This document shows, in pieces, positions 4,070-35,473 of a DNA stretch of 64,000 bases. Position 1 is the stretch's first letter, and every line of letters begins with the position of its first letter. The notes beneath the pieces were generated by a model, which was not told the origin of the DNA, did no database searches, and saw only the letters and a list, made by a program, of their open reading frames with translations. A program made the translations under genes and the position numbers. Source of the stretch: Escherichia phage phiP4; the sequence record PP993145.1. One strand, written 5' to 3'.

Positions 4070-6919
4070 TTAAATAGTAGCCCAACCAACAGATTGCTCA
4101 CCATTTTCCCCTTCTGCTCTAATCCTGAATCGTATTTTACGATTAATTCCTAAAGCACCAGAGTTTAATAGTGCAAAATCCGCCTTATTATATGTTAATA
4201 GATAGTCATAGGTATAGGCATCCTCTATCCTAATACTACGAAGCATTCTATCCTGAGAATCATGTATTTCTAGAGTATAATAAATTTCTGGAATTATTTC
4301 TTCTTCAGGTATTTTATCCCAAGCAAGTTTCACGTCCGGGCCCACAAATTCGGTTACATCTCCAGAAGCTGTATTAGTTACTCTGAAGTTACTAACTACA
4401 CTCAAGTTTCTAGCAGAGTTAAGATCCACGGAAAGAGTAACAGGAGAACTACGTCTACCGTTAATATCAACAGCACGTAATTCAAAAATAGCTAAACCAG
4501 CAGGCTCACCTATAATCTCCTGAACCATCCTTTCATTAGGATTATTCTCTAATTGCTGAATTATGTAAGGGTCTACATGACCTGAATGAGCTATAGAATA
4601 ATATACTACGTTATTAGTAAGACTAGGTAGCCAAGATAGTTCCCCATTTTTACCTATAGCACCTATCATACCGCCAGGAGTTGGTGTATACTTAAAGTCT
4701 CTAGGAGGAAGAACATTATTACTAATATCTGGAATATCATTACCACTATTATCTACTTGATCAGAGTTGATAAATACATCTTCACCATACTCTTGTAGTG
4801 TTAAATTAATCTTACCATCACGAGTATTTTCTACTTCATCTACTAAGAAGAACTTGTCTTTCCACCCATAACGCTCATAAGTAAAAGCAATCGGGTCATT
4901 TGGCTCTATACCAATAAATTTATATGGTACTGAGAAGCTAAGTGTACGTGAGTACCTGGACTTTTTAAGCTCTCTATCAGCGTAACTACGAGCGGTGTAG
5001 TAGTTAGTAATATTTGCAAAAGATAGCTGAAGTTTTTTATCCAAACCCTTATCTTGTTCTTTAAACTTAGAGTTATAGAATGTAATAGAGTTTGTTTTCC
5101 AACTTAGCGCAGGGTCTACTAGGGATGCTTGTACTGAGTTAAACTTATTTCTACCAGTAGTATCAGATAAGTCTAAGTCCCCATAAGTATCTAGAAAACT
5201 TATCTTCAAAGGAGTTGTAGAATGCTTCTCTACAGTTATTCTATACTCGCCAGATAAGTTATTTATAGCTCCGCCAAAAGAATCCAGTACTCCTTGAACA
5301 TTTTTAAATACTGATTCGGAGGTATCTAATATAGTATTTAACTGAACTACTTGGCGATGTTCAGAAATAGAATCACTCCAACCAACATATCTCCAATAGG
5401 GTTGCCAGCTAACCTGATAAGATTCATCAATTATATCTAGAATTTTTGCTTCTGATATAATCTTTTGTAGTGGGAACTGATCTAGAGTTATATTAGCTCC
5501 ATAACGTTCAGAGGTTAGATAGTCCATGAGCTGCCAGATACCATTAAGGCTGGTTTTATCTGCTTTAACAGACCCATCAGAGTTATATACTTTGACTTTC
5601 TTACCTTGTACTTCGGCACTAATTTCTGGAATTTCAGTTCTATTCTCGTTAATAGTAAATCTAACTACAGCATAGGCTGTGTCTAAGAGCTTATAACGAG
5701 AATCCCAGTATTCTGGACCGTTGCCATTTTGATTCTGTAAATAGAAACCTCTTCTTTTAGCAATATCTACTAGTACTTGAGCTGCTGTCTGGTCTGGTTT
5801 GCCATGAAAAGTCCATATTCTTATATCACCATTACCATCGTTATACTTGTACTCCTGGCCATGAACGGAGGGCTGAGAAGTACTTGTACCCGCAGCTAAT
5901 CTATGCATTGTATCGCCCACTAGTTTCTTACGGCCGAAGCAGGTTCTAGCATTGGAATCCGTTTCATCGAAACAGATCATTGGGCTATCACCAATATAGA
6001 AATCTAGAAATCCGTCAATTTCTCCTTCCGAAAACGCATAGACTACATACACTATATTAGGGTTATTTAGCTCAGTATCTGCAAAAATAGGGATACCAGG
6101 AATTTTCTGAACCCCATATACAACAGGTATGAATTTAGCAGCTAAGTTAAAGTCTAAATCAACTTCTTTAGTTACAGTCTCATAATACTTTTTAAGACTG
6201 TAACTTCTTGATAGCCCAAAAAGTTTCTTCTTGGACTGAAGTTTATAGCGTTCTTCTTTTACCTGATATTTAGCTAATATAGTAGTACTTTTATTAGAGT
6301 GGAAGAAACCATAGTCTTCTTGATATTCAGGACGTTTAGCACCATTTGAAGGCTGAAGAGTCCCATTAACAACTTCAAGACCTCGGTGAGAAGCATCATC
6401 AGTATAACGACCATTCACTCTATCAAAATCATAGAACTGGTTAGAACAGTTCCATGTTATAACAGAAGTTCCTATACCGGAAGTACTAACATTATCCTTT
6501 ATTCCTCCACCAGTAATTTTACCACGAAAGAATAGTAAAGGTCCATTAGTATCAGGATCTACAGGAAGAATATTACCTTCTTCATCAATTATAGCTTGAT
6601 GTATAGTGATAGTTCTATCTAAGAAAGATACTCCATTTTGAACTAGTTTTAATACTTCATCTTCTGCTGTACCAGTTATGGTAAAAGATAGGCTACCAAT
6701 AGATAGTTCACGGTTTTGTTTATGAGAGCCGATACTTTTTACTTTACCAGATCTATATAAGATTCCGTTATAAGTAACATCTCTAAAGTAGTCAGTTAAA
6801 TAAATATAAGTAGCAGCAGAGCCTGATGAACTAGGAAGCTCTAAAGCTATAAGACAAGCTGTTTTTAGCTTGTCATGAGTATTAAGATATGTTTTAGCAC
6901 TATCGAGTATCTGCTTCAT
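4070..6919 (-). CDS. baseplate hub protein (pb3-like), 949 aa
   Basis: 949 aa, same length as T5 pb3; follows distal tail protein gene. Confidence 0.7.
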   Translation of the reverse strand: MKQILDSAKTYLNTHDKLKTACLIALELPSSSGSAATYIYLTDYFRDVTYNGILYRSGKVKSIGSHKQNRELSIGSLSFTITGTAEDEVLKLVQNGVSFLDRTITIHQAIIDEEGNILPVDPDTNGPLLFFRGKITGGGIKDNVSTSGIGTSVITWNCSNQFYDFDRVNGRYTDDASHRGLEVVNGTLQPSNGAKRPEYQEDYGFFHSNKSTTILAKYQVKEERYKLQSKKKLFGLSRSYSLKKYYETVTKEVDLDFNLAAKFIPVVYGVQKIPGIPIFADTELNNPNIVYVVYAFSEGEIDGFLDFYIGDSPMICFDETDSNARTCFGRKKLVGDTMHRLAAGTSTSQPSVHGQEYKYNDGNGDIRIWTFHGKPDQTAAQVLVDIAKRRGFYLQNQNGNGPEYWDSRYKLLDTAYAVVRFTINENRTEIPEISAEVQGKKVKVYNSDGSVKADKTSLNGIWQLMDYLTSERYGANITLDQFPLQKIISEAKILDIIDESYQVSWQPYWRYVGWSDSISEHRQVVQLNTILDTSESVFKNVQGVLDSFGGAINNLSGEYRITVEKHSTTPLKISFLDTYGDLDLSDTTGRNKFNSVQASLVDPALSWKTNSITFYNSKFKEQDKGLDKKLQLSFANITNYYTARSYADRELKKSRYSRTLSFSVPYKFIGIEPNDPIAFTYERYGWKDKFFLVDEVENTRDGKINLTLQEYGEDVFINSDQVDNSGNDIPDISNNVLPPRDFKYTPTPGGMIGAIGKNGELSWLPSLTNNVVYYSIAHSGHVDPYIIQQLENNPNERMVQEIIGEPAGLAIFELRAVDINGRRSSPVTLSVDLNSARNLSVVSNFRVTNTASGDVTEFVGPDVKLAWDKIPEEEIIPEIYYTLEIHDSQDRMLRSIRIEDAYTYDYLLTYNKADFALLNSGALGINRKIRFRIRAEGENGEQSVGWATI

Positions 6920-7530
6920 AGACTTTCCCTCAAGGAAAGTGAAATACCAGAGTAAGTACCATTGTTATTTAATGTAGAACCAAAAGAATCAGCATTCATT
7001 AGCTTAGTTCTAAATAAGATACCATTAAAAACTGGTTTTTCACTACCCGTAGTAGTAATAAATAGGTCAGGGTATAAGGATAAGTTCCATACATTTCCTG
7101 AGCTAGTAAAATTTGTTATTTTATAGACTTTTGGGTGATTTGATAATTTAAATAGATCTCCAGCTTTTGGTAGTCCTGTCAAGGTTCCATTAGTATTTAG
7201 TATAATCTGAGAACCTTTCTGTCCTGCTGGTATAGTAACATTTTTAGTATCACCACGTACTCTAAATGCTTCATACTGAGGTAGAAGTACTTCTAGATAA
7301 TCTCCAGTTCTTTTATATTCTAAAATTTTAGAATCTAGGAACGCATATTCATCTGGGAAAAGTTCCGGGTATGATATATTAATTCCCCAGTATTGAGCAG
7401 ATATTTTAACCTCTTTGACTTTACCATTAGGTAATTCATCACGAATCATAGGGTCATTATCTACTACGTTGACGCTTTCAAAACCTAACCCTGGGTATTC
7501 TGGGTTCGTGTATGGATCTGGTAGTCTCAT
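6916..7530 (-). CDS. distal tail protein (pb9-like), 204 aa
   Basis: 204 aa, immediately downstream of tape measure gene; matches T5 pb9 size and position. Confidence 0.65.
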   Translation of the reverse strand: MRLPDPYTNPEYPGLGFESVNVVDNDPMIRDELPNGKVKEVKISAQYWGINISYPELFPDEYAFLDSKILEYKRTGDYLEVLLPQYEAFRVRGDTKNVTIPAGQKGSQIILNTNGTLTGLPKAGDLFKLSNHPKVYKITNFTSSGNVWNLSLYPDLFITTTGSEKPVFNGILFRTKLMNADSFGSTLNNNGTYSGISLSLRESL

Positions 7531-25450: not shown

Positions 25451-25601
25451 TTTGACTTTTGCCAAATTTCATAAGATTACACATGGAGGTGTGTCCAGTG
25501 GCCTCCCGGATGAGAATGAGTCTCATTACCGCCTGGTACTTAGCAAGCTAATAGTCACGATATGCAATGATAACATACCGTGACTATTTCAATTTTAATT
25601 A

Positions 25602-26336
25602 TTACGCGACTTTTAATTTCTCAATATATTGTTGCGGGCTGCAACTATATTCTGCGCGTTCTTCCTCGGTCATACTTTCCCAACATAATTTCAATCGGTC
25701 CGCTAGGAACTGATAATCATTATCATCATCAAGCGATTCATCAATAAAGGTTCCGCCTATCAATGCCACGCCGATTGATAGAATATCATTAACGGCTTGC
25801 GCATCCAGCGTTTTAAATCCGTATGATGCCGCCGCCGCCAATACTCCTTTATGGTCATCAATCATTGTAAAATCAGCGTTCGGGTATAATTGTTTGAATA
25901 GCTCGAAATAATAACTTTTATATACTGCATCCTTGCTGTGGTATATTTCGCTAACCTTATCAGCCGTAAAATATTTGTGAAGTGTATCGCGGGAAAATAC
26001 ACGGATATTGGTATCCCCACGCCCGCGCAATCCTTGTTTGCGTAGGAAGTAATAATCTGACTTGCTCATCAGGCGAGCGGTGCAAATAATGTTTAAAGTA
26101 TTTGCGTCATTCATGCATTGGCGCATATATTCCACCAAAGGCAATAAAGTATCTTGCATTATTAAATGATGCTTGCAAGCCTCGTTTTTGTATTTATTTA
26201 AATCTAAATTCCCGTCGCTATCAAAGCAAGGCGCTACACGATGGAATGAATTAACGATAGTGCCATCAAGATCCCAAATCATGACGCGGGAAATATGCGG
26301 AAAATTACGGGTAATATTCGTTTTAACTTGATTCAT
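25602..26336 (-). CDS. dmp: 5'-deoxyribonucleotidase (HAD family), pre-early
   Basis: HAD motif I WDLDGTIVNS; start chosen at internal Met with GGAG RBS (244 aa); ORF-track start is 26378. Confidence 0.65.
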   Translation of the reverse strand: MNQVKTNITRNFPHISRVMIWDLDGTIVNSFHRVAPCFDSDGNLDLNKYKNEACKHHLIMQDTLLPLVEYMRQCMNDANTLNIICTARLMSKSDYYFLRKQGLRGRGDTNIRVFSRDTLHKYFTADKVSEIYHSKDAVYKSYYFELFKQLYPNADFTMIDDHKGVLAAAASYGFKTLDAQAVNDILSIGVALIGGTFIDESLDDDNDYQFLADRLKLCWESMTEEERAEYSCSPQQYIEKLKVA

Positions 26337-26416
26337 TTTGTTACGTTCTCCAATAAAGGGATCTAGTTTATCCAGCATTGCCCGCTATTTATAAGCGGGC
26401 AATAATAAATCAACTA

Positions 26417-26809
26417 TTAAAGGCCATAAGCCAACGCATCAGCGATAAAACTAATATCCTCGCCAGATACACCGGAACGAATACCAGCACAAGTATATAC
26501 TTTCGCGCTAGATAGCTGATCATCAAAGCAAGCTGGGCAAGGCGCGACAACTGCAAACGCAAGGCCAGCTTTCACGGCGTCGATGATAATCGTTTCCTGC
26601 TTCACCGTATCAACATAAACGCCCGCGGCCTTGATGTGACTACTTGCGCGGCCTTGCGTATAGGCGAAAGTCGTGATCTGTAGCGCCTCATTAAACTCAA
26701 TTAAGTCATCAACAACGTGACCGGCCTCAACGTGATACCGCTCACCATTTGAATAAACCAGAACGATTGAGGACTGAGCGCGATCGAATGGAATATTTTG
26801 CTTTTTCAT
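26417..26809 (-). CDS. cytidine/deoxycytidylate deaminase-like zinc-binding protein, 130 aa
   Basis: H-x-E (YHVEAG) and PCxxC (APCPAC) motifs typical of CDA-fold deaminases. Confidence 0.45.
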   Translation of the reverse strand: MKKQNIPFDRAQSSIVLVYSNGERYHVEAGHVVDDLIEFNEALQITTFAYTQGRASSHIKAAGVYVDTVKQETIIIDAVKAGLAFAVVAPCPACFDDQLSSAKVYTCAGIRSGVSGEDISFIADALAYGL

Positions 26810-26881
26810 ATTTATAAAACTCCAATTAATTTAATAAACTTTTATAGCGGCTATATTTCAAGCCGCTGGGGAATAATTTAA

Positions 26882-28546
26882 TTACGCGAAAAATTTGCCG
26901 TTTTTAAAGTCAATCAAAGTGCGCTGCCCGTTCGCATAGGTAATTAAATGCGTTTGCGTCCAACTTGACGCGCCAACGTTGTAACCCATATCCAGACTAC
27001 CAGCAACGCCAGCGGTATAAACGCCGCCGTAAATGCTGGCGGTGTGGGTGTGCCCCGTGTTTAATTTGCCCAATTTCTTAAACTGCTTCGGATTACCACG
27101 GCTGCCGTTAATGCCGTTGTGACCGTGTACGCCGCATTCAATGCCTGCAATTTTAAATGATTGGTCAGTGGTCAGGAAAATTGCGTTAAACTCGCAACCT
27201 GCGACGTCACGCAGCGCATAATCCAGCACGTTGAAAGTATCGTCATGATTACCGATTGCCGCGTAAATCGCAGCATTAAGGCGGTGATATAGTTCCGCAT
27301 TGGCTGGATCGTCTTTAATGTTAGCATTGCGATCATCAAGCCAACGGGATAACGCCAAATCGTGGTTTGATTCGACAATGATCGTTTGACTAAAATCGCG
27401 CTCCATTGACTCCAGCACGCGCCCGGTATCGATCAGATCATCCAGAACTTTATCACGTCCGGCTGCATACTGTTTCGCTAGGAATACACCAGAGGCGCGA
27501 TTATGATGATTGCGCGATGTAAAATCATGCACGTCATGCACAAACTGATATTTAGGCTTGAGAATATCAAGCAAGCTGTTTTCGCCAGCCCATGACGCTG
27601 CGGCGCACTCCTCATCTAATTTCTCGGCGTGTACGTCGCCATATTGCAAGCCTAAAACATGCCCCGACGTTTCAAAACATCCGGCGGGAGTGGCGCAAAT
27701 ATTCAAATCGTAAAACATGCCGCTTTCGTCCATCGTTTCAAGCTGGCGAACAAAAAATTCCCCGTCCTCGTCGAACTCAACAATCAGCGCACCGTAATTA
27801 TGCAGCGCCTCCGCTTTTTGCCCTGCTTTTTGCTGAATGTAGTTTTTGAGCGTTGCCGTTCCGGTTGAGTACATGCGGCGTACTACTTCACCTTTGAGAG
27901 CTGGCACGCTTTCAGCGGTGATTTTAGCGTGACCAATTGCCAGACCTTCCAGATTAAGCGCGGTTGCAGTTTCAGCAAATCCAGATAGCGGATAATCTGC
28001 CGTTGGCAAAACATTAATTTCAGCCATGAAAGCAAAACGGCGATTGTTTAAAAACACGTTTTTGCTGCAAATATATTTATCAAACGCGGAATCATATTTT
28101 ACACCGTCTGCGCCTTCTCCGTTCTGAAAACCGTTTTTATTATAAATATACTTAGAAACAAGCAAATCAGCGCCGATAAATTTAGCATATTGTTCAAGCG
28201 AGGCTAAAAAGTTTTTATGCGGGAAAGTATTGTTCTGAATTGATGTAATAATAAAGCGTTTGCCCTGTTTTACTTCCCACTGTTCCACCGTGCTGGAAAT
28301 AATTCCAGCCGCCTCGGGGCGCTCGTCGTTTTTAATGGCTTTTGCTACTTTCGCCGCTTTTGGTTTTGCTGGTTTATTTGCTTCCAGCCAATCACAAATC
28401 GCGGTCGAGTGTTTCGTTGTATCGTAGACCGCTTTTGATATATCGTCGCAGACTTCCAGCTTAGTAGCGCGCAGACGTTTACCGTAGAAATTAAAGTCAG
28501 CGGCCAGCTTCAGGATAACGGTTTGTTTTTCTGCGGAAATAATCAT
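26882..28546 (-). CDS. A1: A1 protein (calcineurin-like metallophosphoesterase), pre-early
   Basis: GDVHAE and GNHD metallophosphatase motifs; start set at internal Met with GGAG RBS (ORF track extends to 28636). Confidence 0.6.
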   Translation of the reverse strand: MIISAEKQTVILKLAADFNFYGKRLRATKLEVCDDISKAVYDTTKHSTAICDWLEANKPAKPKAAKVAKAIKNDERPEAAGIISSTVEQWEVKQGKRFIITSIQNNTFPHKNFLASLEQYAKFIGADLLVSKYIYNKNGFQNGEGADGVKYDSAFDKYICSKNVFLNNRRFAFMAEINVLPTADYPLSGFAETATALNLEGLAIGHAKITAESVPALKGEVVRRMYSTGTATLKNYIQQKAGQKAEALHNYGALIVEFDEDGEFFVRQLETMDESGMFYDLNICATPAGCFETSGHVLGLQYGDVHAEKLDEECAAASWAGENSLLDILKPKYQFVHDVHDFTSRNHHNRASGVFLAKQYAAGRDKVLDDLIDTGRVLESMERDFSQTIIVESNHDLALSRWLDDRNANIKDDPANAELYHRLNAAIYAAIGNHDDTFNVLDYALRDVAGCEFNAIFLTTDQSFKIAGIECGVHGHNGINGSRGNPKQFKKLGKLNTGHTHTASIYGGVYTAGVAGSLDMGYNVGASSWTQTHLITYANGQRTLIDFKNGKFFA

Positions 28547-28635
28547 AATAATAAACTCCATTAAAGGGATAAGGTTAATAACGGCAATATTGCCAAATAT
28601 AACGCCTCCAATAATAGGCGTTATAATTTGCAACA

Positions 28636-28881
28636 TTAATTTAAAGGCATCAGGCTAGAACTAACACCACAAACAACGGCGGCAATAAAACAAATCAGGC
28701 CCAAACGCTTCGCTAACTTAGATTTGCGTTTAAAATAATACGAATCTAAATCATTTTGAAAATATGCGAACAATAACGAGGCCGCCATAATAAATAAGCC
28801 TAGAATCAACGATTCAGTAGGGTAAAAGATCATTTTAATAACTCCAGTTAAAGGGAAATTATAGTGGGGAATAATCCCCAC
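28636..28881 (-). CDS. small membrane protein, 81 aa
   Basis: Two predicted TM helices. Confidence 0.4.
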   Translation of the reverse strand: MGIIPHYNFPLTGVIKMIFYPTESLILGLFIMAASLLFAYFQNDLDSYYFKRKSKLAKRLGLICFIAAVVCGVSSSLMPLN

Positions 28882-28890
28882 TATTTAAAT

Positions 28891-29298
28891 TTATTCACCT
28901 GCGGCCTGTTTTACTTCATCGGCAACGCCTAACAACTGCGCCACGGCGTCCAGCGTTTCCAGCTTCGCGCTTTCAAGGCTTGCCAGATCATCGGCGTCCT
29001 TGATAATGCCGGAATCAATAGCGTGTTTTGCAATCACTCGCACGTAATGAGCTTTGCGGATTGAACTACCGCCGCCAACTTTGCGCGGCTTATCGCTTTT
29101 TTGATATGCTTTCGCGCTGGTCAATTTTGAGCGAACTGACACGGGAGAAGCCGCGCCAACTGCTTTCGCAATCTCTTTCAGGCCGTCGCTATTTGCGAAA
29201 TCTAAACCGTTTTCATTGATTAACTGCTGATACATGGTAACAGCTTTTTGGGTGTTTTCTTCGTTCCAAGAAAATTTTGCGGTTTTTGCGTTAGTCAT
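28891..29298 (-). CDS. A2: A2-like pre-early DNA-binding protein, 135 aa
   Basis: Size and position upstream of A1 as in T5; basic C-terminal region. Confidence 0.45.
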   Translation of the reverse strand: MTNAKTAKFSWNEENTQKAVTMYQQLINENGLDFANSDGLKEIAKAVGAASPVSVRSKLTSAKAYQKSDKPRKVGGGSSIRKAHYVRVIAKHAIDSGIIKDADDLASLESAKLETLDAVAQLLGVADEVKQAAGE

Positions 29299-29398
29299 GG
29301 TAAAAACTCCAATTAATTTAATTTAAGGGATTAAATGATTAACTAATGTTAATCGTTATATGCCCCGAACTACTGGGGCATATAAAGTTAACACTATA

Positions 29399-29650
29399 TT
29401 ATAAAACGGCTTCCCATTTTTCGTTACGTTGAACAACCTTTACAACGTCGCCGGATTTAACGCGAACGCTAAAAACGGTTTTTCCGTTGTTACTGCGCTC
29501 ATTTTCAGCGTATACCGCGTCGATTGTATCAAACGGCATAAGCGCCGCGCCTTTAATACGTTCGGCTTTTCCGGTTAATTCATCCGTTTTAGTAACGAAA
29601 GGAATAAAAACAGATTGACCAATTTTCGGCGCGGTAATAACGTTTTGCAT
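29399..29650 (-). CDS. hypothetical protein, 83 aa
   Basis: ORF with upstream RBS. Confidence 0.4.
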   Translation of the reverse strand: MQNVITAPKIGQSVFIPFVTKTDELTGKAERIKGAALMPFDTIDAVYAENERSNNGKTVFSVRVKSGDVVKVVQRNEKWEAVL

Positions 29651-29883
29651 AATATAAACTCCAGTTTATTTGATGGATTGTTCCGCATTATCTGCTAGAA
29701 AATACTAGCAGATAATAAGAAGAAATCCGCTCGCCATTATAAAATCAATTTAAGGAACTCCACGCGGGCCGCTATATCCCAGTTAGGGGGCGGGATGCAT
29801 TATGGTAAGCACCGACCGTCAAATTGTATCAAGTTATCGCTCTTATCGAACTGGGTACATCTTAAAGCCTATCGGCTAGGTTG

Positions 29884-30087
29884 TCAAACTATTTTTTGCA
29901 GTTTTTTATGATTTTCCTTCAGGTCGATCATAATATTTCGCCAGATCATTTCTAGTCCTTGCTGGCGGCCTTTCTTGTACTGCTCAAATCGATATTTTAC
30001 CGATCTTTGCGCTACTGTCAATAAATTTTTTGTTTTGCTATCCAGTGCCTTGCTAGGTTTACCAGTGATCAATAAAGTTTGTTTCAT
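29884..30087 (-). CDS. hypothetical basic protein, 67 aa, bracketed by 17-bp inverted repeats
   Basis: ORF flanked by tcttaaagcctatcggc (29855-29871) and its reverse complement (30118-30134). Confidence 0.3.
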   Translation of the reverse strand: MKQTLLITGKPSKALDSKTKNLLTVAQRSVKYRFEQYKKGRQQGLEMIWRNIMIDLKENHKKLQKIV

Positions 30088-30780
30088 ATCGTCGATTCCT
30101 TATAATGAATAAGTTTACCGCCGATAGGCTTTAAGATATACCCAATTTTTAAAGAGCGCGGCGGTAAACTCCCCGCCGTGTAGTTCGTCATTGCCGCCCT
30201 ACGAGATAAATAATAACAAACAACGAAAAAGGCGCAACCTTATATTTGTAAAGAAATGTAAAGACAAACGCCACCGGACACCGTGCGGCGACCTGGGCGC
30301 GGCGCATTAAAATTAAAAGAAACGGGCGCGCGAATACCACAAAACACAGCAGATAGGCAAGTAATTTTTTCATTTATATTTGCTTTGCCCTACTTGACAA
30401 AATCTAAAAAGCTCGTGGCAGCGATAAACGGCTTATCCCCTTATGATGGGATGGCTAAAAACTTTATTGCGTTCTGGGGCGTTTTAGGCCGCCTATTTTC
30501 GACTTAACAAATCATTAACAAACGCAAAATTGAAAAATAGTTGGAAAAGGTCTTGACTTTTAAAAATCAAGATCAAATGACTTATTTTATAAAATAAATT
30601 AATTGACTTTTATTTGTTAGTATGCATCGGAAAGATAGCAGACTATTAATCACTAGAAGGATGATCATGCTGGTGGATTGTAACGGCCTGAATTATTAGC
30701 AGACTATTAATCACGGAAAAACTCATTAGCCAACTAACTATTTCATGATATATAATATACTTATAAATTAATGAGAAATA

Positions 30781-30863
30781 ATAACTATAAGAAATCATCA
30801 CCATTATAATAATAACTATAAGAAATCATCACCATTATAATAATAACTATAAGAAACTATCGG
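30781..30863. repeat. 31-bp tandem direct repeat, about 2.7 copies
   Basis: ataactataagaaatcatcaccattataata repeated head-to-tail. Confidence 0.8.
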
Positions 30864-30890
30864 CATAAGTGAGAACCACTATCATTTAAG

Positions 30891-30998
30891 TTATCCACAA
30901 TGTTATCCACAGCACAAAATAATTTGACACGATAGGCGGCGATATAAGGGCTTATCCACAGACTTATCCACAGGTTATCCTACTGTATAAATATACAG
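30891..30998. promoter_or_regulatory. DnaA-box cluster (4-5 TTATCCACA-like boxes) including left 40-bp inverted repeat arm (30959-30998)
   Basis: ttatccaca, gttatccacag, cttatccacag x2, ggttatcct read directly. Confidence 0.7.
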
Positions 30999-31263
30999 GG
31001 TAAAAAGGCAGTGTTAACGACTGCAATCAATTTTAAGCGGCCTAAAACGCTTTCTAACGAGCTAAACGCTGTGGGGTAATATTAAAGTAAAGACCCAACG
31101 CGGTGCCCTGGTGGCTTCGCCGTGTTTTGCTCTTTACCGTACCGCTGCGCGGTTATCATAAAAATAGGCGTTAGGCAAGGAAAATAAAAAAGTAAAATAA
31201 TCTTTGCCTATGCTAGAAAATTACCCTTATCATTTACTCACCGATTAACGAGAGGGCCAACAA

Positions 31264-32256
31264 ATGAGGCTATATAAACCAGATAACGCAACCGTCTTAA
31301 AAGGTGCGCTGCGTAACCTGCTGGATGGTAGCAGAACAACCAGCATCCGGCATTTTGTTTTCAATATTGAAACTATTCATCAAAACTTTTTTGATGAATA
31401 TGACGCTTATAATATGAATAGTTTTCTACCGTTATATAAACAAGGGGCAACGCTTGTTTTGTATAATCAGGATTATCAATTGCTCACTAGTCGGGGGCCG
31501 GATACTGATTTCATAATCGTAAAAGGCAACACAGTAAAAGCCTATGATACTGGGGCGGGCTTAGAAGTTTTTTCAATAGAAAACTATGAGGCTAATGATA
31601 ATGATCTTTATGACGTAGAAAATTTTCTTGATTCATTTTGGCGTTATTTATCAGTTGGCTGGAATCGGTCGGATTCTGATGGGTATCGTTTTGCGGCTAT
31701 AATGGCCTTCGATGATAACGGTAATTTTTTGCTACCGTCGGAACTATGCCCGTATGTTTATAATGATCTGATACAGGAGGCCGGTTTTACTTTCTGGAAA
31801 GATGAGGATCAGATTATTAACAGTATAGAAAAACATGCTGTAAATTCTAACACTCAAAGCGTTATCACTCAAACTACTGAAAATAAAGGAAAAAACACTA
31901 TGACCAAGATCGCTAACATCGTTGCCGCCAATAAGTCTGCCGTTGTAAACGCTGCAAAACTGGAAGCGGGTAAAATTGCACTAACTCAAATCACGAAAGT
32001 AGCGGCTAAAAAAGCACCGTTCATGATCAAAGGTTATATCGATACGCCGATTGGTCGCGTAGTAATCGCTAACCTGCTGAGTGTAGCGGTTGACCAGTAC
32101 GCCCCGAGTAACCAGAAAGCGAAAGCGGTAGCGGGGGCGGCTATGGAAGCGGCAATGTTGGAAATGGTGCAAAGTTTTAACATCGCTGAGATGATCGATG
32201 AAATGGTAAAAGGTATCGATATTTCTACTTTTACCAATAACACCGAAAACGAGTAA
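31264..32256 (+). CDS. hypothetical protein, 330 aa
   Basis: First gene of plus-strand cassette between the inverted repeats; no recognisable motif. Confidence 0.45.
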   Translation: MRLYKPDNATVLKGALRNLLDGSRTTSIRHFVFNIETIHQNFFDEYDAYNMNSFLPLYKQGATLVLYNQDYQLLTSRGPDTDFIIVKGNTVKAYDTGAGLEVFSIENYEANDNDLYDVENFLDSFWRYLSVGWNRSDSDGYRFAAIMAFDDNGNFLLPSELCPYVYNDLIQEAGFTFWKDEDQIINSIEKHAVNSNTQSVITQTTENKGKNTMTKIANIVAANKSAVVNAAKLEAGKIALTQITKVAAKKAPFMIKGYIDTPIGRVVIANLLSVAVDQYAPSNQKAKAVAGAAMEAAMLEMVQSFNIAEMIDEMVKGIDISTFTNNTENE

Positions 32257-32377
32257 TAACTAGCCCATTGTAAAGTTTTGTAAAGGCCGCCTTTTATGGT
32301 GGCCTTTTTTGTTATAATGCCTTTACACCGTTTGAGGACGGTTGAAAATTTTCCCAAAAAATTTTGGAGGCTTAAAA

Positions 32378-32607
32378 TGGTTGCTTTTTCTTCTTCTGAC
32401 GCTCTTTTCACTGGAAAAGGCTGGGTATCAAATCGCTGGATTATTCAGGAAATGGTGCAAGAGTACGGCATTGCTAAAACTTATACTACCATTCAGGCGC
32501 TTTATGATAATGATCAAATCGATCAGCAAACGGCGGGCTTTTTACTGGATACCCTGAAGGCGGAACACTGTACCAAAAAACAAGCCGCTAAAATTGTTTT
32601 AATGTAA
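32378..32607 (+). CDS. hypothetical protein, 76 aa
   Basis: Start set at Met preceded by GGAGG RBS (ORF-track start 32296). Confidence 0.4.
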
Positions 32608-32656
32608 TTAATAACGGGGCGAAAGTATCGCCCCACTAACTAGGGGAGTATCACAA

Positions 32657-32839
32657 ATGATTATTTTTCGAGCTTTTTTAGCGGGTATCTTGGGAGCTAT
32701 TTTGACCCTTTTCGCCACCGCTTACGGTATTCAGGATTCCTATTGCGGTTTGGTAAACACAAAACCTATGGTTACTATAGGCGCTGGTATCGCTGTATTT
32801 TCTTATCTGCTGGGCTGCATGAATAGTAAAGGAGAATAA
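32657..32839 (+). CDS. small membrane protein, 60 aa
   Basis: Two hydrophobic segments, RBS present. Confidence 0.4.
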   Translation: MIIFRAFLAGILGAILTLFATAYGIQDSYCGLVNTKPMVTIGAGIAVFSYLLGCMNSKGE

Positions 32840-32841
32840 AA

Positions 32842-33054
32842 ATGATCCGCAACGTTTCTCTTGCACGTTCGAAAGGTTTTAAGCTGGTGGACGCTAACAC
32901 GTTCGAGCGTCCAGATTGCAAGATCGAATATGTAGCACGTAATAAAAATGCCTTTCGTGTTACCGAGAAAAAATTTGATAAGCGCGGCAACGTGATCCTT
33001 GAAACGGTTAGGCACTTTGCCACCTTTTACGCTGCATTTCGTGGGGTACTATGA
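32842..33054 (+). CDS. hypothetical protein, 70 aa
   Basis: RBS AAGGAG upstream. Confidence 0.4.
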   Translation: MIRNVSLARSKGFKLVDANTFERPDCKIEYVARNKNAFRVTEKKFDKRGNVILETVRHFATFYAAFRGVL

Positions 33055-33290
33055 AAAGCGTTATTGTTGTTATCCTTGCAATGGCTGGCGGTTTTATCGC
33101 CACCTTATTTAAGAATGATCCCACTTCGTTGGGTATCTTTATGCTTTTATCGGGCTATCTGATCGGGAGGTTGTCAAATGATAGCGCAAATTAAAACGGC
33201 TTTTCGTTTTTGGGGCGTCCTGCCTTCAATTGGTTTTATTCTGATAATCATTAGTCAGCTAATGATTATCGTTGGCGTTATCTGGGAGCT

Positions 33291-33641
33291 ATGCAAATGA
33301 TCATTTACGAGGGCAATCGCTTTGTTGCTAATTGCCGCCCGGCATTGTTAGCAAACTATTTAAACCAGCTTTCACCAGCTTATAAGGGCGTTATTAATAT
33401 TTACGAGGGCAAGGCGCATTATAAAATCAATGCGGTCGTTGCCCGTGAACTAGCGTTTCAATTTTTAACCTTTGCATCTTGCGACGTTCAGGTTATGGGT
33501 GAGGCGTTAATTGCAGAAAATGAAGACGATTTTATTAATATTTTCCGTAAGGTATGCACCGAGCGCCTGATAATCAAAGGCGCATATATTCAATCCACGG
33601 CTGATAGTATTGAAACAGCGTTTCGAAAGGTGGCGCAATGA
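33291..33641 (+). CDS. hypothetical protein, 116 aa
   Basis: ORF; last sizeable gene of plus-strand cassette. Confidence 0.4.
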   Translation: MQMIIYEGNRFVANCRPALLANYLNQLSPAYKGVINIYEGKAHYKINAVVARELAFQFLTFASCDVQVMGEALIAENEDDFINIFRKVCTERLIIKGAYIQSTADSIETAFRKVAQ

Positions 33642-33793
33642 AACGATGGTTTAATCACTGGTACAAGCGGTTTTTAGTACGCCGTCGCAAGTCTAGGCAT
33701 CAAGATGAGTGGCGGGAGTGGGCAAAGCGTAACGGTTGCCCACTAATATAATAATCACGGGGCGCAACTATCAGGGAGTGCCCCCAATTTTCA

Positions 33794-34370
33794 AATGATA
33801 ATCATTCTCATTTGACCGCGCCCGCGATGGTTAGCCTGCTAATGGTTCGGGTGTTACGTGTCGCCTTGTGTGATCGTTAGCTCGCTAACTAATTTTCAAG
33901 CCTCCTCCAATTTTGCCCTTGTTTTAGTATCCCCACCAAAATTAAACGCGTTAGAATGCGTTTGAGAGCGTTTTAACGCTATATTAGAATTATTCGCTGC
34001 GTAGGAATACTGTATATTTATCCAGTAGGATAAGCTGTGGATAAGTCTGTTAATAACGCCTCAAAATGGCTAGGGTTTTGTCAAGTCAAATCGTGCTGTT
34101 AATAAGTCTGTGGATAACTTAAATAACAGTGTTTCTCACTTCCGTTCTTAAATGAGAATCATTATCATTTGTATTTCACTATCTAACTAATAATCATTCC
34201 ACTATCTAACTAATAATCATTCCACTTTCTAAATGAGAATCATTCCGCTTTTTAAATGAGAATCATTTCACTTTTTAAATGAGATTGATTCTCATTTCAC
34301 TTTCTAAATGCGAATTATTATCATTCTCATTCCGCTTTTTAAATGAGAATGATTCTTATTATCATTCGTA
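33794..34370. promoter_or_regulatory. array of at least 7 Fur-box-like AT-rich palindromes (AAATGAGAATCATT family)
   Basis: 33794-33814 aaatgataatcattctcattt matches 16/19 of GATAATGATAATCATTATC; 34148-34166 matches 15/19; further copies 34231-34366. Confidence 0.45.
34010..34049. repeat. right 40-bp inverted repeat arm with DnaA boxes (partner of 30959-30998)
   Basis: Reverse complement equals left arm with 3 mismatches; extra tgtggataac box at 34103-34112. Confidence 0.75.
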
Positions 34371-34374
34371 TTTA

Positions 34375-34396
34375 GCGCAGAGCAATTGCTCTGCGC
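34375..34396. repeat. perfect 22-bp palindrome gcgcagagcaattgctctgcgc
   Basis: Read directly. Confidence 0.85.
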
Positions 34397-34400
34397 TTTT

Positions 34401-35000
34401 GTGCAAATCCGACATTGCTCCACGGGTGTTACGTGCGGGCGTGTATGTGCGAATCCGACAATTTTTGGTAGTGTGCAAATCCGACCCGAAAAATTTTTAT
34501 AGTGTGCAAATCCGACAATGAATTTTCCTAAAAACTCCAGCAATCCGATGCTGCGCATCAATCCTGTGGAATTAGCTAGAGTATGTGCAAATCCGACATG
34601 GGTTTATTTGTGCGAATCCGACAAGATTTTTGTGACTTCGATTGGAGGGTGTGTGATTGTGTGGGTTTGGGGAGAAGTTGAGAGAGCGAGAGAAAATAAG
34701 AGGAGAAGCTAGAGGGGCAGCAGTGGTGGCGTGCAACGCCTGATTTGCTGCGTTTTTGGGGAGAGTTGAAAAGATTTGGGTTAATTTGAGATTAGTGGAG
34801 ATAAAGTAAAATTTTATTAGCAAAATGGGGCAAAATAGCTTGACAAGTGAAAATTTCTGTGGCTCTAAAAACTCAGGCAATCACGGGCCTTCGGCCCGAA
34901 ATAATGCTGCCATTTTCAGGAGATTATATGTTCCTAAAAACTTAGGCAATTGTGCAAATCCGACCATAAATTTCTAGAAACACAATGTGCAAATCCGACA
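34401..35000. repeat. eight dispersed copies of GTGC(A/G)AATCCGAC(A/C) motif plus AACCGCC and ttcctaaaaac repeats; injection-stop-signal-like noncoding region
   Basis: Copies at 34401, 34447, 34473, 34503, 34585, 34610, 34953, 34987. Confidence 0.75.
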
Positions 35001-35473
35001 GTAATTTCTGGAAATGTGTTTTCAAAAAATGTCTCCTAGAAATAACCGCCCTCCCCATAACCGCCCTGTATTAAACCGCCTAGTATATGTTCCTAGAAAC
35101 TTGGGAGAACCGCCCACTAGAAGCGTGAGATCTCGTGAGTATTTCGTGAGAACTCTGGAGTTTCTAGGAAAGTGTTGTGCCATCCTAGCAGATGAGCGGC
35201 AACCGGTGTATCATCTTGAATGTAAATTATGTGGTCAAAAGTTTTACCTTTAATTTAAGTATAAGATCCCCCAAGATTGGAAGAGATGCTCCACCCCTGG
35301 GATACGAATTGCGTGAGATGGTACAAAACTTCTTAAGATTTCCCTAGTCCTTCGACAAGCTACGGGGGAAATAGAAGTTTCCCATCCACCATCCGTATCC
35401 GGGTGGATCTCTTTATTCTATGTTATTTCATAGAGTTATTATAACATGCAGAAATCATAACGTCAAGTAGAGT

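What the first reader, a model, noticed from the sequence alone, without database searches (positions are those of the whole stretch)
33794..34370. Dense array of Fur-box-like palindromes in the noncoding part of the repeat block
At least seven AT-rich palindromes of the AAATGAGAATCATT family occur within about 580 bp. The best two match the 19-bp E. coli Fur box GATAATGATAATCATTATC at 16/19 and 15/19 positions. On first-injected DNA, such an array could titrate Fur and de-repress iron-uptake receptors, or it may serve as binding sites for a phage protein at the injection stop. I do not recall this being described.
Basis: partly seen in the sequence, partly recalled or inferred. Interest (0 to 1): 0.6.

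Follow-up and report, generated by a model that had tools for sequence, protein, structure and literature searches.

The report
Host-repressor landing pad at T5 injection stop
The AT-rich palindromes are real, are as good as E. coli's best Fur (iron repressor) operators, and form the long-known but unexplained repeat block of the phage T5-type "injection stop signal"; related phages carry arrays of MetJ operators at the same spot, so host repressors probably bind there, which turns a 50-year-old question into simple experiments.

Summary
Observation confirmed. The window is a T5-like phage. The finding lies in the untranslated injection-stop (iss) region at the right end of the ~9.4-kb terminal repeat. 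It is homologous to T5's annotated DRC repeats and palindromes E-I, whose function the literature calls unknown.

I built a Fur matrix from 15 E. coli K-12 Fur promoters. It gives 14 positions of at least 16 bits in the 64 kb. Nine lie in 33791-34363 (best 23.1, 22.1, 22.0, 21.5 bits), the same range as fhuF, sufA and ryhB operators. None of 2000 composition-matched shuffles or 2000 column-permuted matrices comes close. The array is conserved in every T5-like locus examined.

The titration idea is not supported. One array can hold only a small fraction of the cell's Fur, and host DNA is destroyed within minutes.

The new evidence is comparative:
- At the same position, Vibrio, Aeromonas and Providencia T5-like phages carry 9-16 in-phase MetJ met-boxes.
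- All lineages carry an SOS-box-grade LexA site next to the known DnaA boxes.

The iss therefore looks like a cluster of operator-grade sites for host DNA-binding proteins. Binding itself and its role in the stop are inferred, not shown. I found no report of this in the searchable literature.

The parts
25492..34865 (+). Approximate extent of the terminal repeat (first-step-transfer DNA) in this collapsed assembly
   Evidence: The left end was placed by homology to the first bases of T5 (TGTCCACTGCCTCC versus window TGTCCAGTGGCCTCC). The right end was mapped from T5 AY587007 position 10139 by local alignment. All 14 Fur-PWM positions of at least 16 bits in the 64-kb window fall inside this interval.
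33791..33815 (.). Isolated Fur-like palindrome CAAATGATAATCATTCTCATTTG, just after the last pre-early ORF and a terminator-like hairpin
   Evidence: Scores 22.1 bits (+) and 20.6 bits (-), as a pair 6 bp apart like natural operators. Present in most of 40 T5-like loci but absent from T5 itself.
33814..33826 (+). GACCGCGCCCGCG, a conserved GC-rich tail of the isolated palindrome
   Evidence: The same palindrome plus GACCGCGCC(C)G module is found in Aeromonas phage AhSzw-1 and Vibrio phage pVp-1; Ceto has a variant, TTTCGGCGCGCCCG. Function unknown.
34008..34027 (.). LexA (SOS) box-like palindrome TACTGTATATTTATCCAGTA, equivalent to T5 palindrome D
   Evidence: Matches the LexA consensus 18/20 and scores 25.0 bits on a PWM built from real K-12 SOS boxes (recA scores 23.9). 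It is the best match in the window; the next best outside the two repeat regions is 14.6 bits. Conserved next to the DnaA boxes in all lineages.
34036..34056 (-). DnaA box pair TGTGGATAA-GTC-TGTTAATAA (one consensus box and one variant box)
   Evidence: Pattern search. Described for T5-like phages by Davison 2020.
34097..34117 (-). Second DnaA box pair TGTTAATAA-GTC-TGTGGATAA
   Evidence: Davison 2020.
34129..34139 (+). GTGTTTCTCAC, the conserved end of inverted repeat C' that marks the left border of the array
   Evidence: Found in 42 T5-like loci and used as the anchor to extract arrays.
34148..34172 (.). Array box 1: TTAAATGAGAATCATTATCATTTGT (hexamers forward-forward-x-reverse-reverse)
   Evidence: 21.5 bits (+) and 22.0 bits (-); 7-1-7 match 13/14.
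34183..34223 (+). Two degenerate 23-bp units (CTAACTAATAATCATTCC, twice)
   Evidence: Direct repeat families D1 and D10; Fur score below 10 bits.
34229..34270 (+). Two half-strength 23-bp units, TAAATGAGAATCATTCCG and TAAATGAGAATCATTTCA
   Evidence: 12.6 and 13.3 bits. Each unit reads TTAAAT-GAGAAT-C-ATTCCG plus a 4-bp spacer, which is the classical 19-bp forward-forward-x-reverse arrangement (read directly from the sequence).
34275..34299 (.). Array box: TTAAATGAGATTGATTCTCATTTCA
   Evidence: 15.9 bits (+) and 17.6 bits (-).
34304..34334 (.). Array box: CTAAATGCGAATTATTATCATTCTCATTCCG (forward-forward-x-reverse-reverse-reverse)
   Evidence: 16.7 bits (+), 17.5 and 11.4 bits (-).
34339..34375 (.). 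Array box: TTAAATGAGAATGATTCTTATTATCATTCGTATTTAG (two forward and five reverse hexamers)
   Evidence: 16.8 bits (+), 23.1, 13.1 and 11.2 bits (-); 16/19 to the consensus.
34374..34397 (.). Perfect palindrome AGCGCAGAGCAATTGCTCTGCGCT (T5 palJ). CTCTGCGC at 34389-34396 is homologous to the T5 7.9% major nick site
   Evidence: T5 annotation 'major single-stranded nick 1, 7.9%' on CCCTGCGC.
34401..34998 (+). Eight copies of the DRD repeat GTGCRAATCCGA
   Evidence: RGTGCRAAWYCGA-like repeats follow the array in all lineages examined.
30865..31000 (.). Inverted copy of the module in 'Repeat Region 2': a Fur-like box (30865-30889), four DnaA boxes (30891-30972) and a LexA-like box (30981-31000)
   Evidence: Fur 15.4 and 13.1 bits. 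DnaA boxes. LexA 17/20, 22.8 bits, with a perfect CTGT-N8-ACAG.
25512..25530 (-). Fur-like palindrome about 20-40 bp from the inferred left genome end (the first DNA to enter the cell)
   Evidence: 18.7 bits. A homologous box lies at positions 14-38 of the Pectobacterium phage My1 record, and downstream of dmp in the Aeromonas and Vibrio phages. Absent from T5.
25706..25730 (.). Fur-like site inside the 3' end of the dmp gene
   Evidence: 20.3 and 21.2 bits. Conserved in T5 (20.3 bits), GZ8 (24.1 bits) and nearly all 40 loci. It may be held by coding constraint.

Best explanation
The array is this phage's version of the DRC/DRE/palE-I repeat block of the T5-type injection stop signal.

It is built from 6-bp units (NNGAAT / ATTCNN) arranged like Fur operators, and it is operator-grade for host Fur.

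Most likely reading: when the first-step-transfer DNA enters, pre-existing holo-Fur (Fur-Fe2+) coats this roughly 225-bp stretch cooperatively. It does so beside LexA bound to the palD SOS-like box and DnaA bound to the four DnaA boxes. Together they form a host-protein complex on the last DNA inside the cell, immediately left of the 7.9% nick and shear point.

The role is architectural: to hold, stiffen, insulate or block the DNA at the pause. It is not to change Fur-regulon expression. The stop happens without phage protein synthesis, so it needs pre-existing factors.

One concrete form of this idea, which is inference only: membrane-associated DnaA tethers the DNA next to the pore, and the repressor sheath makes the short tether-to-pore segment too stiff to loop, so transfer stalls until A1 and A2 release it.

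Shown here: the sequence grammar, its statistics, its conservation, and its replacement by operator arrays for other host proteins in sister lineages.

Inferred: actual binding in vivo and any effect on DNA transfer.
For: 1. PWM scores equal the best chromosomal Fur operators, and the matrix is specific on 126 kb of E. coli DNA. Shuffle and permuted-matrix controls are 0 of 2000.
2. The hits show the same paired pattern, 6 bp apart on opposite strands, as natural operators. The ryhB operator segment AATCATTCTCATTCGC is identical to a phage unit. Chen et al. 2007 report the 6-bp spacing and chromosomal clusters of 19-142 bp.
3. The array is present in all 32 distinct arrays from 42 T5-like loci, despite copy-number turnover (151-340 bp), and also in Sugarlandvirus, My1, and L193/L194.
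4. At the same position, between the DnaA boxes and the GCGC nick, other lineages carry in-phase met-box arrays:
   - Aeromonas phage AhSzw-1: 16 units, 101/128 matches.
   - Vibrio phages pVp-1, Ceto and Quinn: 9-10 units.
   - Providencia phages PR1 and PSTCR5: 9 units, 61/72 matches.
   - Metagenomic phage L198: 10 units plus two Fur-like boxes.
   - The best 6-unit score is 37-42 of 48 in these loci, against 21-27 (one 31) in about 228 control loci. Real E. coli met operators reach 21-24 of 32.
5. LexA boxes of SOS-box grade flank the DnaA boxes in all lineages. The window boxes score 25.0 and 22.8 bits; recA scores 23.9.
6. All Fur hits of at least 16 bits in the window lie in first-step-transfer DNA.
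7. [quoted passage not shown]
8. A2 divergence does not track array type.
Against: - No binding data exist. Everything rests on sequence.
- The phage unit has conserved features that Fur does not need: the T-rich flank TTTYT, G at hexamer position 3 in 74% of units, and a left half more conserved than the right. A second or different reader of the sequence is therefore possible.
- fur mutants are classically T5-sensitive (from memory), so Fur cannot be essential for plaque formation.
- Some lineages have arrays I cannot assign to any host factor: L254, L257 and the Proteus 46-bp repeats.
- A protein coat inside the cell does not by itself explain how pressure-driven entry is halted.
- No convincing promoter overlaps the boxes, whereas 83% of chromosomal Fur clusters overlap one.
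Confidence: 0.5

Rival explanations
1. A phage-encoded protein (A2, another pre-early protein, or a virion protein) is the true binder. The array would be an iteron or centromere-like handle used to restart or stop DNA transfer, and the resemblance to Fur boxes would be incidental or only tolerated.
For: [quoted passage not shown]
- The array lies exactly at the first-step/second-step boundary.
- The units are 23-bp direct repeats with a conserved non-Fur flank and an asymmetric conservation profile.
- The array motif differs between distant lineages, as co-evolving protein-site pairs do.
Against: - An incidental match of 20-23 bits to Fur has a chance of about 5e-7 per position.
- An independent match of 9-16 in-phase units to the MetJ box in other lineages is very unlikely for sites of a phage protein.
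- A2 is about 40% identical to the window's A2 in Fur-type (L193), Met-type (Ceto) and other-type (L257) lineages alike.
- The A2 model is all-helical, tri-helical HTH-like. It resembles neither the Fur winged helix nor the MetJ ribbon-helix-helix fold, although the model is low-confidence.
- The stop itself needs no phage protein synthesis.
- The DRD repeat, conserved in all lineages, is a better match for a conserved phage protein.
Confidence: 0.2
2. Regulatory or checkpoint version. Binding depends on co-repressors (Fe2+ for Fur, SAM for MetJ, intact LexA). The cluster would couple pre-early transcription, or the release of the pause, to the host's physiological state, rather than acting as a passive architectural element.
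For: - All three candidate host proteins are signal-responsive repressors (established knowledge).
- Fur-like boxes also occur near the pre-early promoter region (30865; AhSzw-1 hits of 19-21.6 bits upstream of A2).
- A1-dependent host DNA degradation could plausibly trigger RecA-mediated LexA cleavage. This last step is inference.
Against: - No strong sigma-70 promoter overlaps the array. The best match is 9/12 inside the array and 10/12 at 33962, and that one is not conserved in T5.
- There is no ORF or known RNA to regulate nearby.
- There are no experimental data on iron or SAM dependence of T5 transfer.
Confidence: 0.15
3. Protein-independent DNA element. The AT-rich palindromes would form cruciforms or hairpins, act as bent or easily melted DNA (a DUE-like partner of the DnaA boxes), or physically hinder passage through the tail or pore.
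For: - Many palindromes with arms up to 41 nt at 71% complementarity.
- Array GC content is 27%.
- The array lies next to DnaA boxes, as in oriC.
Against: - The arms converge on one specific sequence rather than co-varying. Perfect (GCGAAT/ATTCGC, GCAAAT/ATTTGC, ACGAAT/ATTCGT) and mismatched arm combinations occur side by side.
- Many units are half-sites with no partner arm.
- The GC-rich met-box arrays at the same position are not easily melted.
- In vitro ejection is complete, so the DNA alone does not stop transfer.
Confidence: 0.08
4. One reading: the array titrates Fur and de-represses iron-uptake receptors such as FhuA and FepA.
For: The boxes are operator-grade. Cloned on a multicopy plasmid, they would very probably score positive in a FURTA assay.
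Against: - Capacity is a few dozen dimers, against thousands of Fur molecules per cell (from memory).
- Host DNA is degraded and host synthesis is shut off within about 5 minutes.
- The array is shared by T5-like phages that use BtuB as receptor, and BtuB is not Fur-regulated (from memory).
- Sister phages use MetJ boxes instead, which has no link to receptors.
Confidence: 0.03

Closest known systems
T5 injection stop signal, 'Repeat Region 3': DRC copies 1-4 / DRE1-2 and palindromes E-J (Heusterspreute 1987; Wang 2005 annotation in AY587007; Davison 2015, 2020)
   Same: It is the homologous element. The order is the same: terminator, palD, DnaA-box inverted repeat, GTGTTTCTCAC, array, GCGC nick palindrome, DRD repeats. 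The unit sequences are near-identical.
   Different: This phage has more units (272 versus 222 bp from anchor to first DRD) and an extra isolated box at 33791 that T5 lacks. The literature describes the block only as repeats and palindromes whose function 'is impossible to guess'. Fur, LexA and MetJ are not mentioned.
E. coli Fur operator clusters (fhuF, ryhB, fepB-entC, aerobactin iucA long operator; Chen et al. 2007; Escolar hexamer model; Baichoo-Helmann 7-1-7 model)
   Same: Same 19-bp matrix scores. Same overlapping sites 6 bp apart on opposite strands. Same GATAAT-type hexamer grammar. There are 16-nt identities to the ryhB operator.
   Different: It is not at a promoter. At about 225 bp it is longer than the largest chromosomal cluster (142 bp). 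It is organised as 23/29/35-bp tandem units with a conserved T-rich spacer. G is preferred at hexamer position 3. It is carried on phage DNA.
Davison's DnaA-box model of the T5 injection stop (bioRxiv 10.1101/866236)
   Same: The same idea that a pre-existing host DNA-binding protein recognises the iss. The DnaA boxes are confirmed here.
   Different: That model uses only DnaA and treats palD and the DRE/DRC block as unexplained. Here these are read as LexA and Fur (or MetJ) operators.
MetJ operators (tandem 8-bp met boxes AGACGTCT; metJ/B, metF, metA, metE, metC)
   Same: Arrays in the Aeromonas, Vibrio and Providencia T5-like phages match the consensus as well as or better than real operators, and they are in phase.
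   Different: 9-16 boxes, against 2-5 in chromosomal operators. Not present in this window (best 25/48). They occupy the slot that Fur-like units occupy here.
Host-factor sites in other phage cis-acting regions (for example IHF sites at lambda cos and attP; from memory)
   Same: Phage noncoding DNA that recruits abundant host DNA-binding proteins to build a nucleoprotein structure.
   Different: Here the recruited proteins would be metabolite- or damage-responsive repressors used in long arrays, at a DNA-entry pause site.

Membership tests
Fur operator (Fur box cluster) | Match to the 19-bp Fur matrix at the level of experimentally regulated sites | tested here: met
   Five positions at 20.6-23.1 bits, against 13-24 bits for 15 real sites. 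0 of 2000 shuffles reach the observed count.
Fur operator (Fur box cluster) | Overlapping sites spaced 6 bp apart (hexamer or 7-1-7 architecture) | tested here: met
   Paired hits on opposite strands 6 bp apart at every strong box; a lag-6 autocorrelation peak; 7-1-7 matches of 13/14; compare Chen 2007.
Fur operator (Fur box cluster) | Overlap with a sigma-70 promoter that Fur occludes | tested here: not met
   Only weak 9/12 promoter-like matches inside the array, and no downstream gene.
Fur operator (Fur box cluster) | Metal-dependent binding of Fur in vitro or in vivo | not testable with these tools
   Needs EMSA, footprinting, FURTA or ChIP.
T5-type injection stop signal (Repeat Region 3) | Untranslated block at the right end of the terminal repeat, in the order palD, DnaA-box inverted repeat, DRC/DRE array, 7.9% nick, DRD repeats | tested here: met
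T5-type injection stop signal (Repeat Region 3) | Cis-acting arrest of DNA transfer at this site | not testable with these tools
   Known for T5 only from shear mapping; never dissected genetically.
Transcription-factor decoy or titration array | Site capacity comparable to the cellular pool of the factor, and a host regulon that can respond | tested here: not met
   225 bp against thousands of Fur molecules (from memory); host DNA is degraded within minutes. This is an estimate, not a measurement.
LexA SOS box | CTGT-N8-ACAG palindrome scoring like real SOS boxes | tested here: met
   34008-34027 matches 18/20 (25.0 bits) and 30981-31000 matches 17/20 (22.8 bits). For comparison, recA 16/20, sulA 17 and umuD 18. 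In 153 kb of E. coli DNA, matches of at least 15/20 occur only at the SOS boxes of the five SOS genes fetched, plus one site next to hokE, which I recall is LexA-regulated.
MetJ operator (met-box array) | At least 2 tandem in-phase 8-mers close to AGACGTCT | tested here: not met
   Best in the window is 25/48, which is background. The feature is met in related phages at the homologous position, at 37-42/48.
Iteron or centromere-like array bound by a phage protein | Tandem direct repeats plus a cognate element-encoded binding protein | tested here: inconclusive
   The direct repeats are present. No cognate protein was identified. A2 divergence does not track array type.

The most novel reading that the evidence does not exclude
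T5-like phages assemble their injection-stop region from interchangeable arrays of operators for host signal-responsive repressors. These are Fur in Escherichia, Salmonella, Klebsiella and Pectobacterium phages; MetJ in Vibrio, Aeromonas and Providencia phages; and LexA plus DnaA in all of them. Pre-existing host repressors would then physically gate two-step genome delivery, and might couple it to host iron, SAM or DNA-damage status.
Probability: 0.3. Interest if true: 0.9.

Novelty: new variant of a known kind. Interest (0 to 1): 0.75.

Why it matters
How T5 stops DNA injection at 8% without making any protein has been open since the 1960s, and the repeat block at the stop site is explicitly called uninterpretable in the field's own reviews.

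Reading that block as operator-grade sites for named host proteins turns the problem into cheap, decisive experiments:
- Fur, MetJ and LexA gel shifts and footprints.
- First-step-transfer assays in fur, metJ, lexA and dnaA backgrounds, or under iron chelation.
- Array swaps using the existing T5 reverse genetics.

If confirmed, it would be a new way for a virus to use host transcription factors: as structural parts of a genome-delivery checkpoint rather than as regulators. It would also give a sequence rule for recognising such regions in other phages.

Tried and rejected
- Exact 14-mer AAATGAGAATCATT scan of IMG/VR. It returned mostly single chance matches in unrelated contigs and was not informative. 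I replaced it with protein-anchored locus retrieval.
- Promoter and terminator scan of 33600-35400. No convincing promoter in the array. The 10/12 match at 33962 is not conserved in T5.
- Zur as an alternative Fur-family reader. The consensus, recalled from memory, matches at most 14/22. Rejected.
- Pfam, PHROGs and PDB sequence searches for A2 and other pre-early proteins. A2 is only a 'DNA binding protein' PHROG with no solved relative.
- Single-sequence AlphaFold model of A2 (pLDDT 76, pTM 0.40) and Foldseek search. Only weak tri-helical HTH hits. This tells us A2 is not Fur-like or MetJ-like, and nothing about its specificity.
- Vibrio phage 70E34-1a (L019). No recognisable iss architecture in the region I read, so it was not usable as a test.
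- Davison 2015 review (PMC4743489 / DOI). Not held in the library, so I could not check whether it mentions Fur. The same author's 2020 preprint does not.
- Hairpin or cruciform covariation was judged by eye on 32 arrays. Perfect and mismatched arm pairs are mixed. I ran no formal pair-count test.
Full report
**What the window is and where the finding lies.**
- Megablast of 33600-35200 finds 451 phage records. All of the listed best hits are T5-like Salmonella or Escherichia phages, the best at 93% identity.
- In records that start at the physical left end, the match falls at about 8.7-10.5 kb.
- AY587007 itemises its contents: palindromes C and D, inverted repeats D' and C', direct repeats B, direct repeat C copies 1-4, palindromes E-J, the 7.9% major nick, and nine copies of direct repeat D.
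- The T5 sequence of DRC/palE-I is visibly the same family as the window's palindromes.
- By homology to the T5 ends, the terminal repeat spans about 25492-34865 in this collapsed assembly.
- The finding is therefore the repeat block of the T5-type iss: the last part of the first-step-transfer (FST) DNA, immediately left of the nick and shear point.

**Checking the observation.**
- I did not rely on the consensus alone. I fetched 15 Fur-regulated promoter regions of E. coli K-12.
- From these I derived a 19-bp matrix. It converged in one iteration to the textbook consensus. Real sites score 13-24 bits, and 7-22 bits when each is left out in turn.
- The matrix is specific. In 126 kb of E. coli DNA, hits of at least 14 bits are almost confined to Fur promoters. 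The four 'extra' hits include the known fur and fecA boxes.
- In the 64-kb window, 14 positions reach 16 bits. Nine lie in 33791-34363, with 23.1, 22.1, 22.0, 21.5 and 20.6 bits at the top.
- Controls:
  - Dinucleotide shuffles of the region give 0.02 such hits (0 of 2000 reach nine).
  - Column-permuted matrices never match the observed count (0 of 2000).
  - The chance of at least 20 bits under the array's own 27% GC composition is about 5e-7.
The 7-1-7 motif is matched 13/14 twice. A Zur consensus fits poorly, at 14/22 or less.

**Anatomy.**
- The 580 bp are not one array. An isolated palindrome (33791-33815) follows the last pre-early ORF.
- Next come:
  - a LexA-like box (34008-34027);
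  - two pairs of DnaA or DnaA-like boxes (34036-34056 and 34097-34117);
  - the conserved GTGTTTCTCAC (34129-34139);
  - a 225-bp array (34148-34375).
- After the array come the perfect palindrome that carries the nick motif (34374-34397) and eight DRD repeats.
- The array unit is 23 bp and reads TTAAAT-GAGAAT-C-ATTCCG plus a 4-bp spacer. This is the classical forward-forward-x-reverse Fur box.
- Some units are lengthened by one or two extra ATTNNN hexamers, to 29 or 35 bp. Autocorrelation peaks at lags 6, 23, 29 and 35.
- Strong boxes give paired hits 6 bp apart on opposite strands, as do the ryhB, fhuA, sufA and fecI operators.
- Chen et al. 2007 describe this as the signature of Fur clusters. 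In the E. coli genome those clusters span 19-142 bp, and only 42 contain a site above 17 bits.
- The GZ8-type phage unit AATCATTCTCATTCGC is identical to the ryhB operator over 16 nt.

**Conservation.**
- Anchoring on A2 retrieved 40 T5-like loci from IMG/VR.
- Counting the window, T5 and GZ8 as well, 42 loci gave 32 distinct arrays of 151-340 bp.
- Copy number turns over, but the unit grammar does not. Every locus that includes the region has 3-9 positions of at least 16 bits there.
- The same holds for Klebsiella phage GZ8, Pectobacterium phage My1 (five boxes), and the unassigned L193/L194.
- A logo of 96 distinct units correlates with the Fur matrix (mean column r = 0.70-0.73) only in the correct register and its 6-bp shift.
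- The logo also shows phage-specific features: a conserved TTTYT flank, G rather than T at hexamer position 3 (74%), and a better-conserved left half.
- Three further Fur-like places recur in the terminal repeat:
  - the isolated palindrome;
  - a site in the 3' end of dmp;
  - a box 20-40 bp from the left genome end.
- All 14 hits of at least 16 bits in the window are in FST DNA, which is 15% of the window.

**The comparative result that changes the interpretation.**
- In Aeromonas phage AhSzw-1 the overall architecture is kept: LexA-like palindrome, DnaA boxes, one palE-like Fur box, then the GCGC motif and DRD-like repeats.
- There, however, the array slot holds 16 in-phase 8-mers (GGACGTCT AGATGTTT AGACGGCT AGAAGTCC ...). 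They match the MetJ met-box AGACGTCT at 101/128 positions.
- Real E. coli operators that I extracted score lower:
  - metJ/B 24/32;
  - metF 22/32;
  - metA 22/32;
  - metE 21/32;
  - metC 13/16.
- An A1-anchored retrieval of 80 more loci gave a bimodal picture. The best six-unit score is 21-27 of 48 (one 31) in about 228 loci, but 37-42 in 11 loci from seven phages.
- Those phages are Vibrio phages pVp-1, Ceto and Quinn, Providencia phages PR1 and PSTCR5, AhSzw-1, and an unidentified metagenomic phage.
- In each, the met-box array lies between the DnaA boxes and the GCGC nick motif. The metagenomic phage has two Fur-like boxes followed by ten met boxes.
- T5's palindrome D is an SOS box. Against real K-12 SOS boxes (recA 16/20, sulA 17, umuD 18, lexA 15/14, recN 16/15), the window's 34008-34027 scores 18/20 (25.0 bits).
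- The copy in Repeat Region 2 (30981-31000) scores 17/20 (22.8 bits). The next best site in 64 kb is 14.6 bits.
- Every lineage has such boxes beside its DnaA boxes.
- One Aeromonas-like contig (L187) even fills the array slot with eight 17-bp LexA-box-like repeats.
- Some lineages have arrays I cannot assign: L254, L257 and the Proteus 46-bp repeats, which still contain 16-bit Fur-like sites.

**Interpretation.**
- Two different host-operator grammars (Fur and MetJ) occupy the same slot in sister lineages.
- Beside them, in all lineages, lie LexA and DnaA sites.
- Coincidence or a phage-encoded reader explains this poorly.
- It fits a region that recruits pre-existing host DNA-binding proteins.
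- That in turn fits three facts from the literature:
  - the stop needs no phage protein synthesis;
  - FhuA proteoliposomes allow complete injection in vitro;
  - the field regards the responsible host protein as unknown.
- Fur and MetJ share one property (from memory: Le Cam 1994 for Fur; Phillips 1989 for MetJ). Both polymerise cooperatively along tandem short repeats.
- This suggests an architectural role: a sheath, stiffener, roadblock or anchor on the last intracellular DNA.
- The co-repressor dependence also leaves room for a physiological checkpoint.
- I rate 'host Fur binds and this is the selected function' at about 0.5.
- The specific tether-plus-stiffener mechanism is conjecture.

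**The Fur titration model.** It is rejected on four grounds:
- capacity (dozens of dimers against thousands of Fur molecules, from memory);
- the rapid destruction of host DNA;
- the presence of the same array in phages that use BtuB, which is not Fur-regulated (from memory);
- the MetJ substitution in sister lineages.

**The main rival: the phage protein A2.**
- A2 is essential for second-step transfer and binds DNA.
- It has no Pfam family and no solved relative.
- A low-confidence single-sequence model is all-helical, with weak homeodomain or Myb-like matches. That makes it neither Fur-like nor MetJ-like.
- Its identity to the window protein is about 40% in Fur-type (L193), Met-type (Ceto) and other-type (L257) lineages alike.
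- By the same conservation logic, the DRD repeat (RGTGCRAAWYCGA, present in all lineages) is the better candidate for a conserved phage protein. This is inference only.

**Novelty.**
- The repeat block is known. Its reading as Fur operators is not, as far as I could search.
- 'Fur' and 'iron' occur zero times in Davison 2020, and 'LexA', 'SOS', 'MetJ' and 'repressor' also zero times.
- Full-text searches for phage T5 plus Fur box, for Fur plus T5-like plus injection stop, for MetJ plus T5-like, and for LexA plus T5-like plus terminal repeat found nothing relevant.
- The 2015 review and the 1987 and 2005 primary papers are not in the library, so prior mention there cannot be excluded.

**Limits.**
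- All evidence is sequence-based.
- The matrices come from small sets: 15 Fur sites, 9 LexA sites (two of them doubtful), and a consensus only for MetJ.
- The met-box and LexA resemblances were noticed after the fact. The bimodal score distributions and the calibration on E. coli DNA make chance unlikely.
- The hosts of the IMG/VR contigs were identified only where a GenBank twin exists.

Noticed in passing
L020 about 3110-3250 (Aeromonas phage AhSzw-1); L189 5517-5588 (Vibrio pVp-1); L190 5106-5185 (Vibrio Ceto); L021 12-91 (Vibrio Quinn); L221 3818-3889 (Providencia PR1); L232 3784-3855 (PSTCR5); L198 4174-4253: Arrays of 9-16 in-phase 8-mers matching the MetJ met-box AGACGTCT, at 71-85% identity to the consensus (57/80 in Quinn to 61/72 in PR1). 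They occupy the position that the Fur-like array occupies in this window. They are longer than any E. coli met operator I extracted, and most match the consensus at least as well.
   Followed up: yes
window 34008-34027 and 30981-31000; homologous sites in every related lineage: T5 'palindrome D' and its copy in Repeat Region 2 are SOS-box-grade LexA sites (18/20 and 17/20; 25.0 and 22.8 bits). They are the two best LexA matches in the 64 kb, and each lies next to a cluster of four DnaA boxes.
   Followed up: yes
window 25512-25530: A Fur-like palindrome (GGTAATGAGACTCATTCTC, 18.7 bits) about 20-40 bp from the inferred left genome end, which is the first DNA to enter the cell. A near-identical box lies at positions 14-38 of the My1 record and downstream of dmp in the Aeromonas and Vibrio phages. 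T5 has lost it.
   Followed up: partly
window 25706-25730 (inside dmp, 25602-26378, minus strand): A 20-21-bit Fur-like site within the acidic C-terminal coding part of dmp. It is conserved in T5 (20.3 bits), GZ8 (24.1 bits) and nearly all 40 loci. I cannot tell whether this reflects coding constraint or a real site.
   Followed up: partly
window 33792-33826; L020 about 4776-4800; L189 and L190: The isolated Fur-like palindrome is followed by GACCGCGCC(C)GCG. This two-part module is conserved from this phage to the Aeromonas phage and Vibrio phage pVp-1 (Ceto has a variant tail), although the flanking DNA is unrelated.
   Followed up: partly
window 34401-34998 (8 copies); all related loci: The DRD repeat RGTGCRAAWYCGA, on the second-step side of the nick, is the one repeat family conserved in all lineages whatever the array type. 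That makes it a candidate site for a conserved phage protein such as A2.
   Followed up: no
L187 about 7240-7340; L254 and L257; L018 6700-6870: Other fillings of the same array slot: eight 17-bp LexA-box-like repeats (L187); four 30-bp CTAAATTAGCTAGAACTAATAAAGGTAAGG repeats (L254); CTAATTWAGC at a 15-bp period (L257); and 46-bp repeats in Proteus phages. L257 also has the 22-bp perfect palindrome TTGACGTTTACGTAAACGTCAA, and L198 has partial copies of it. None of these is assigned to a factor.
   Followed up: no
window 33237-33282: An inverted repeat TGATAATCATTAG-TCAG-CTAATGATTATCG (Fur scores 11.8-17.6 bits) inside a 40-codon ORF (33178-33300).
   Followed up: no
window 30767-30854: Two 31-bp-spaced copies of CATTATAATAATAACTATAAGA (10-13 bits on the Fur matrix) in the pre-early promoter and repeat region, left of the DnaA/LexA module.
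   Followed up: no
window 35040-35120: Several copies of AACCGCC(C/T) (T5 direct repeat A family), just beyond the inferred right end of the terminal repeat.
   Followed up: no
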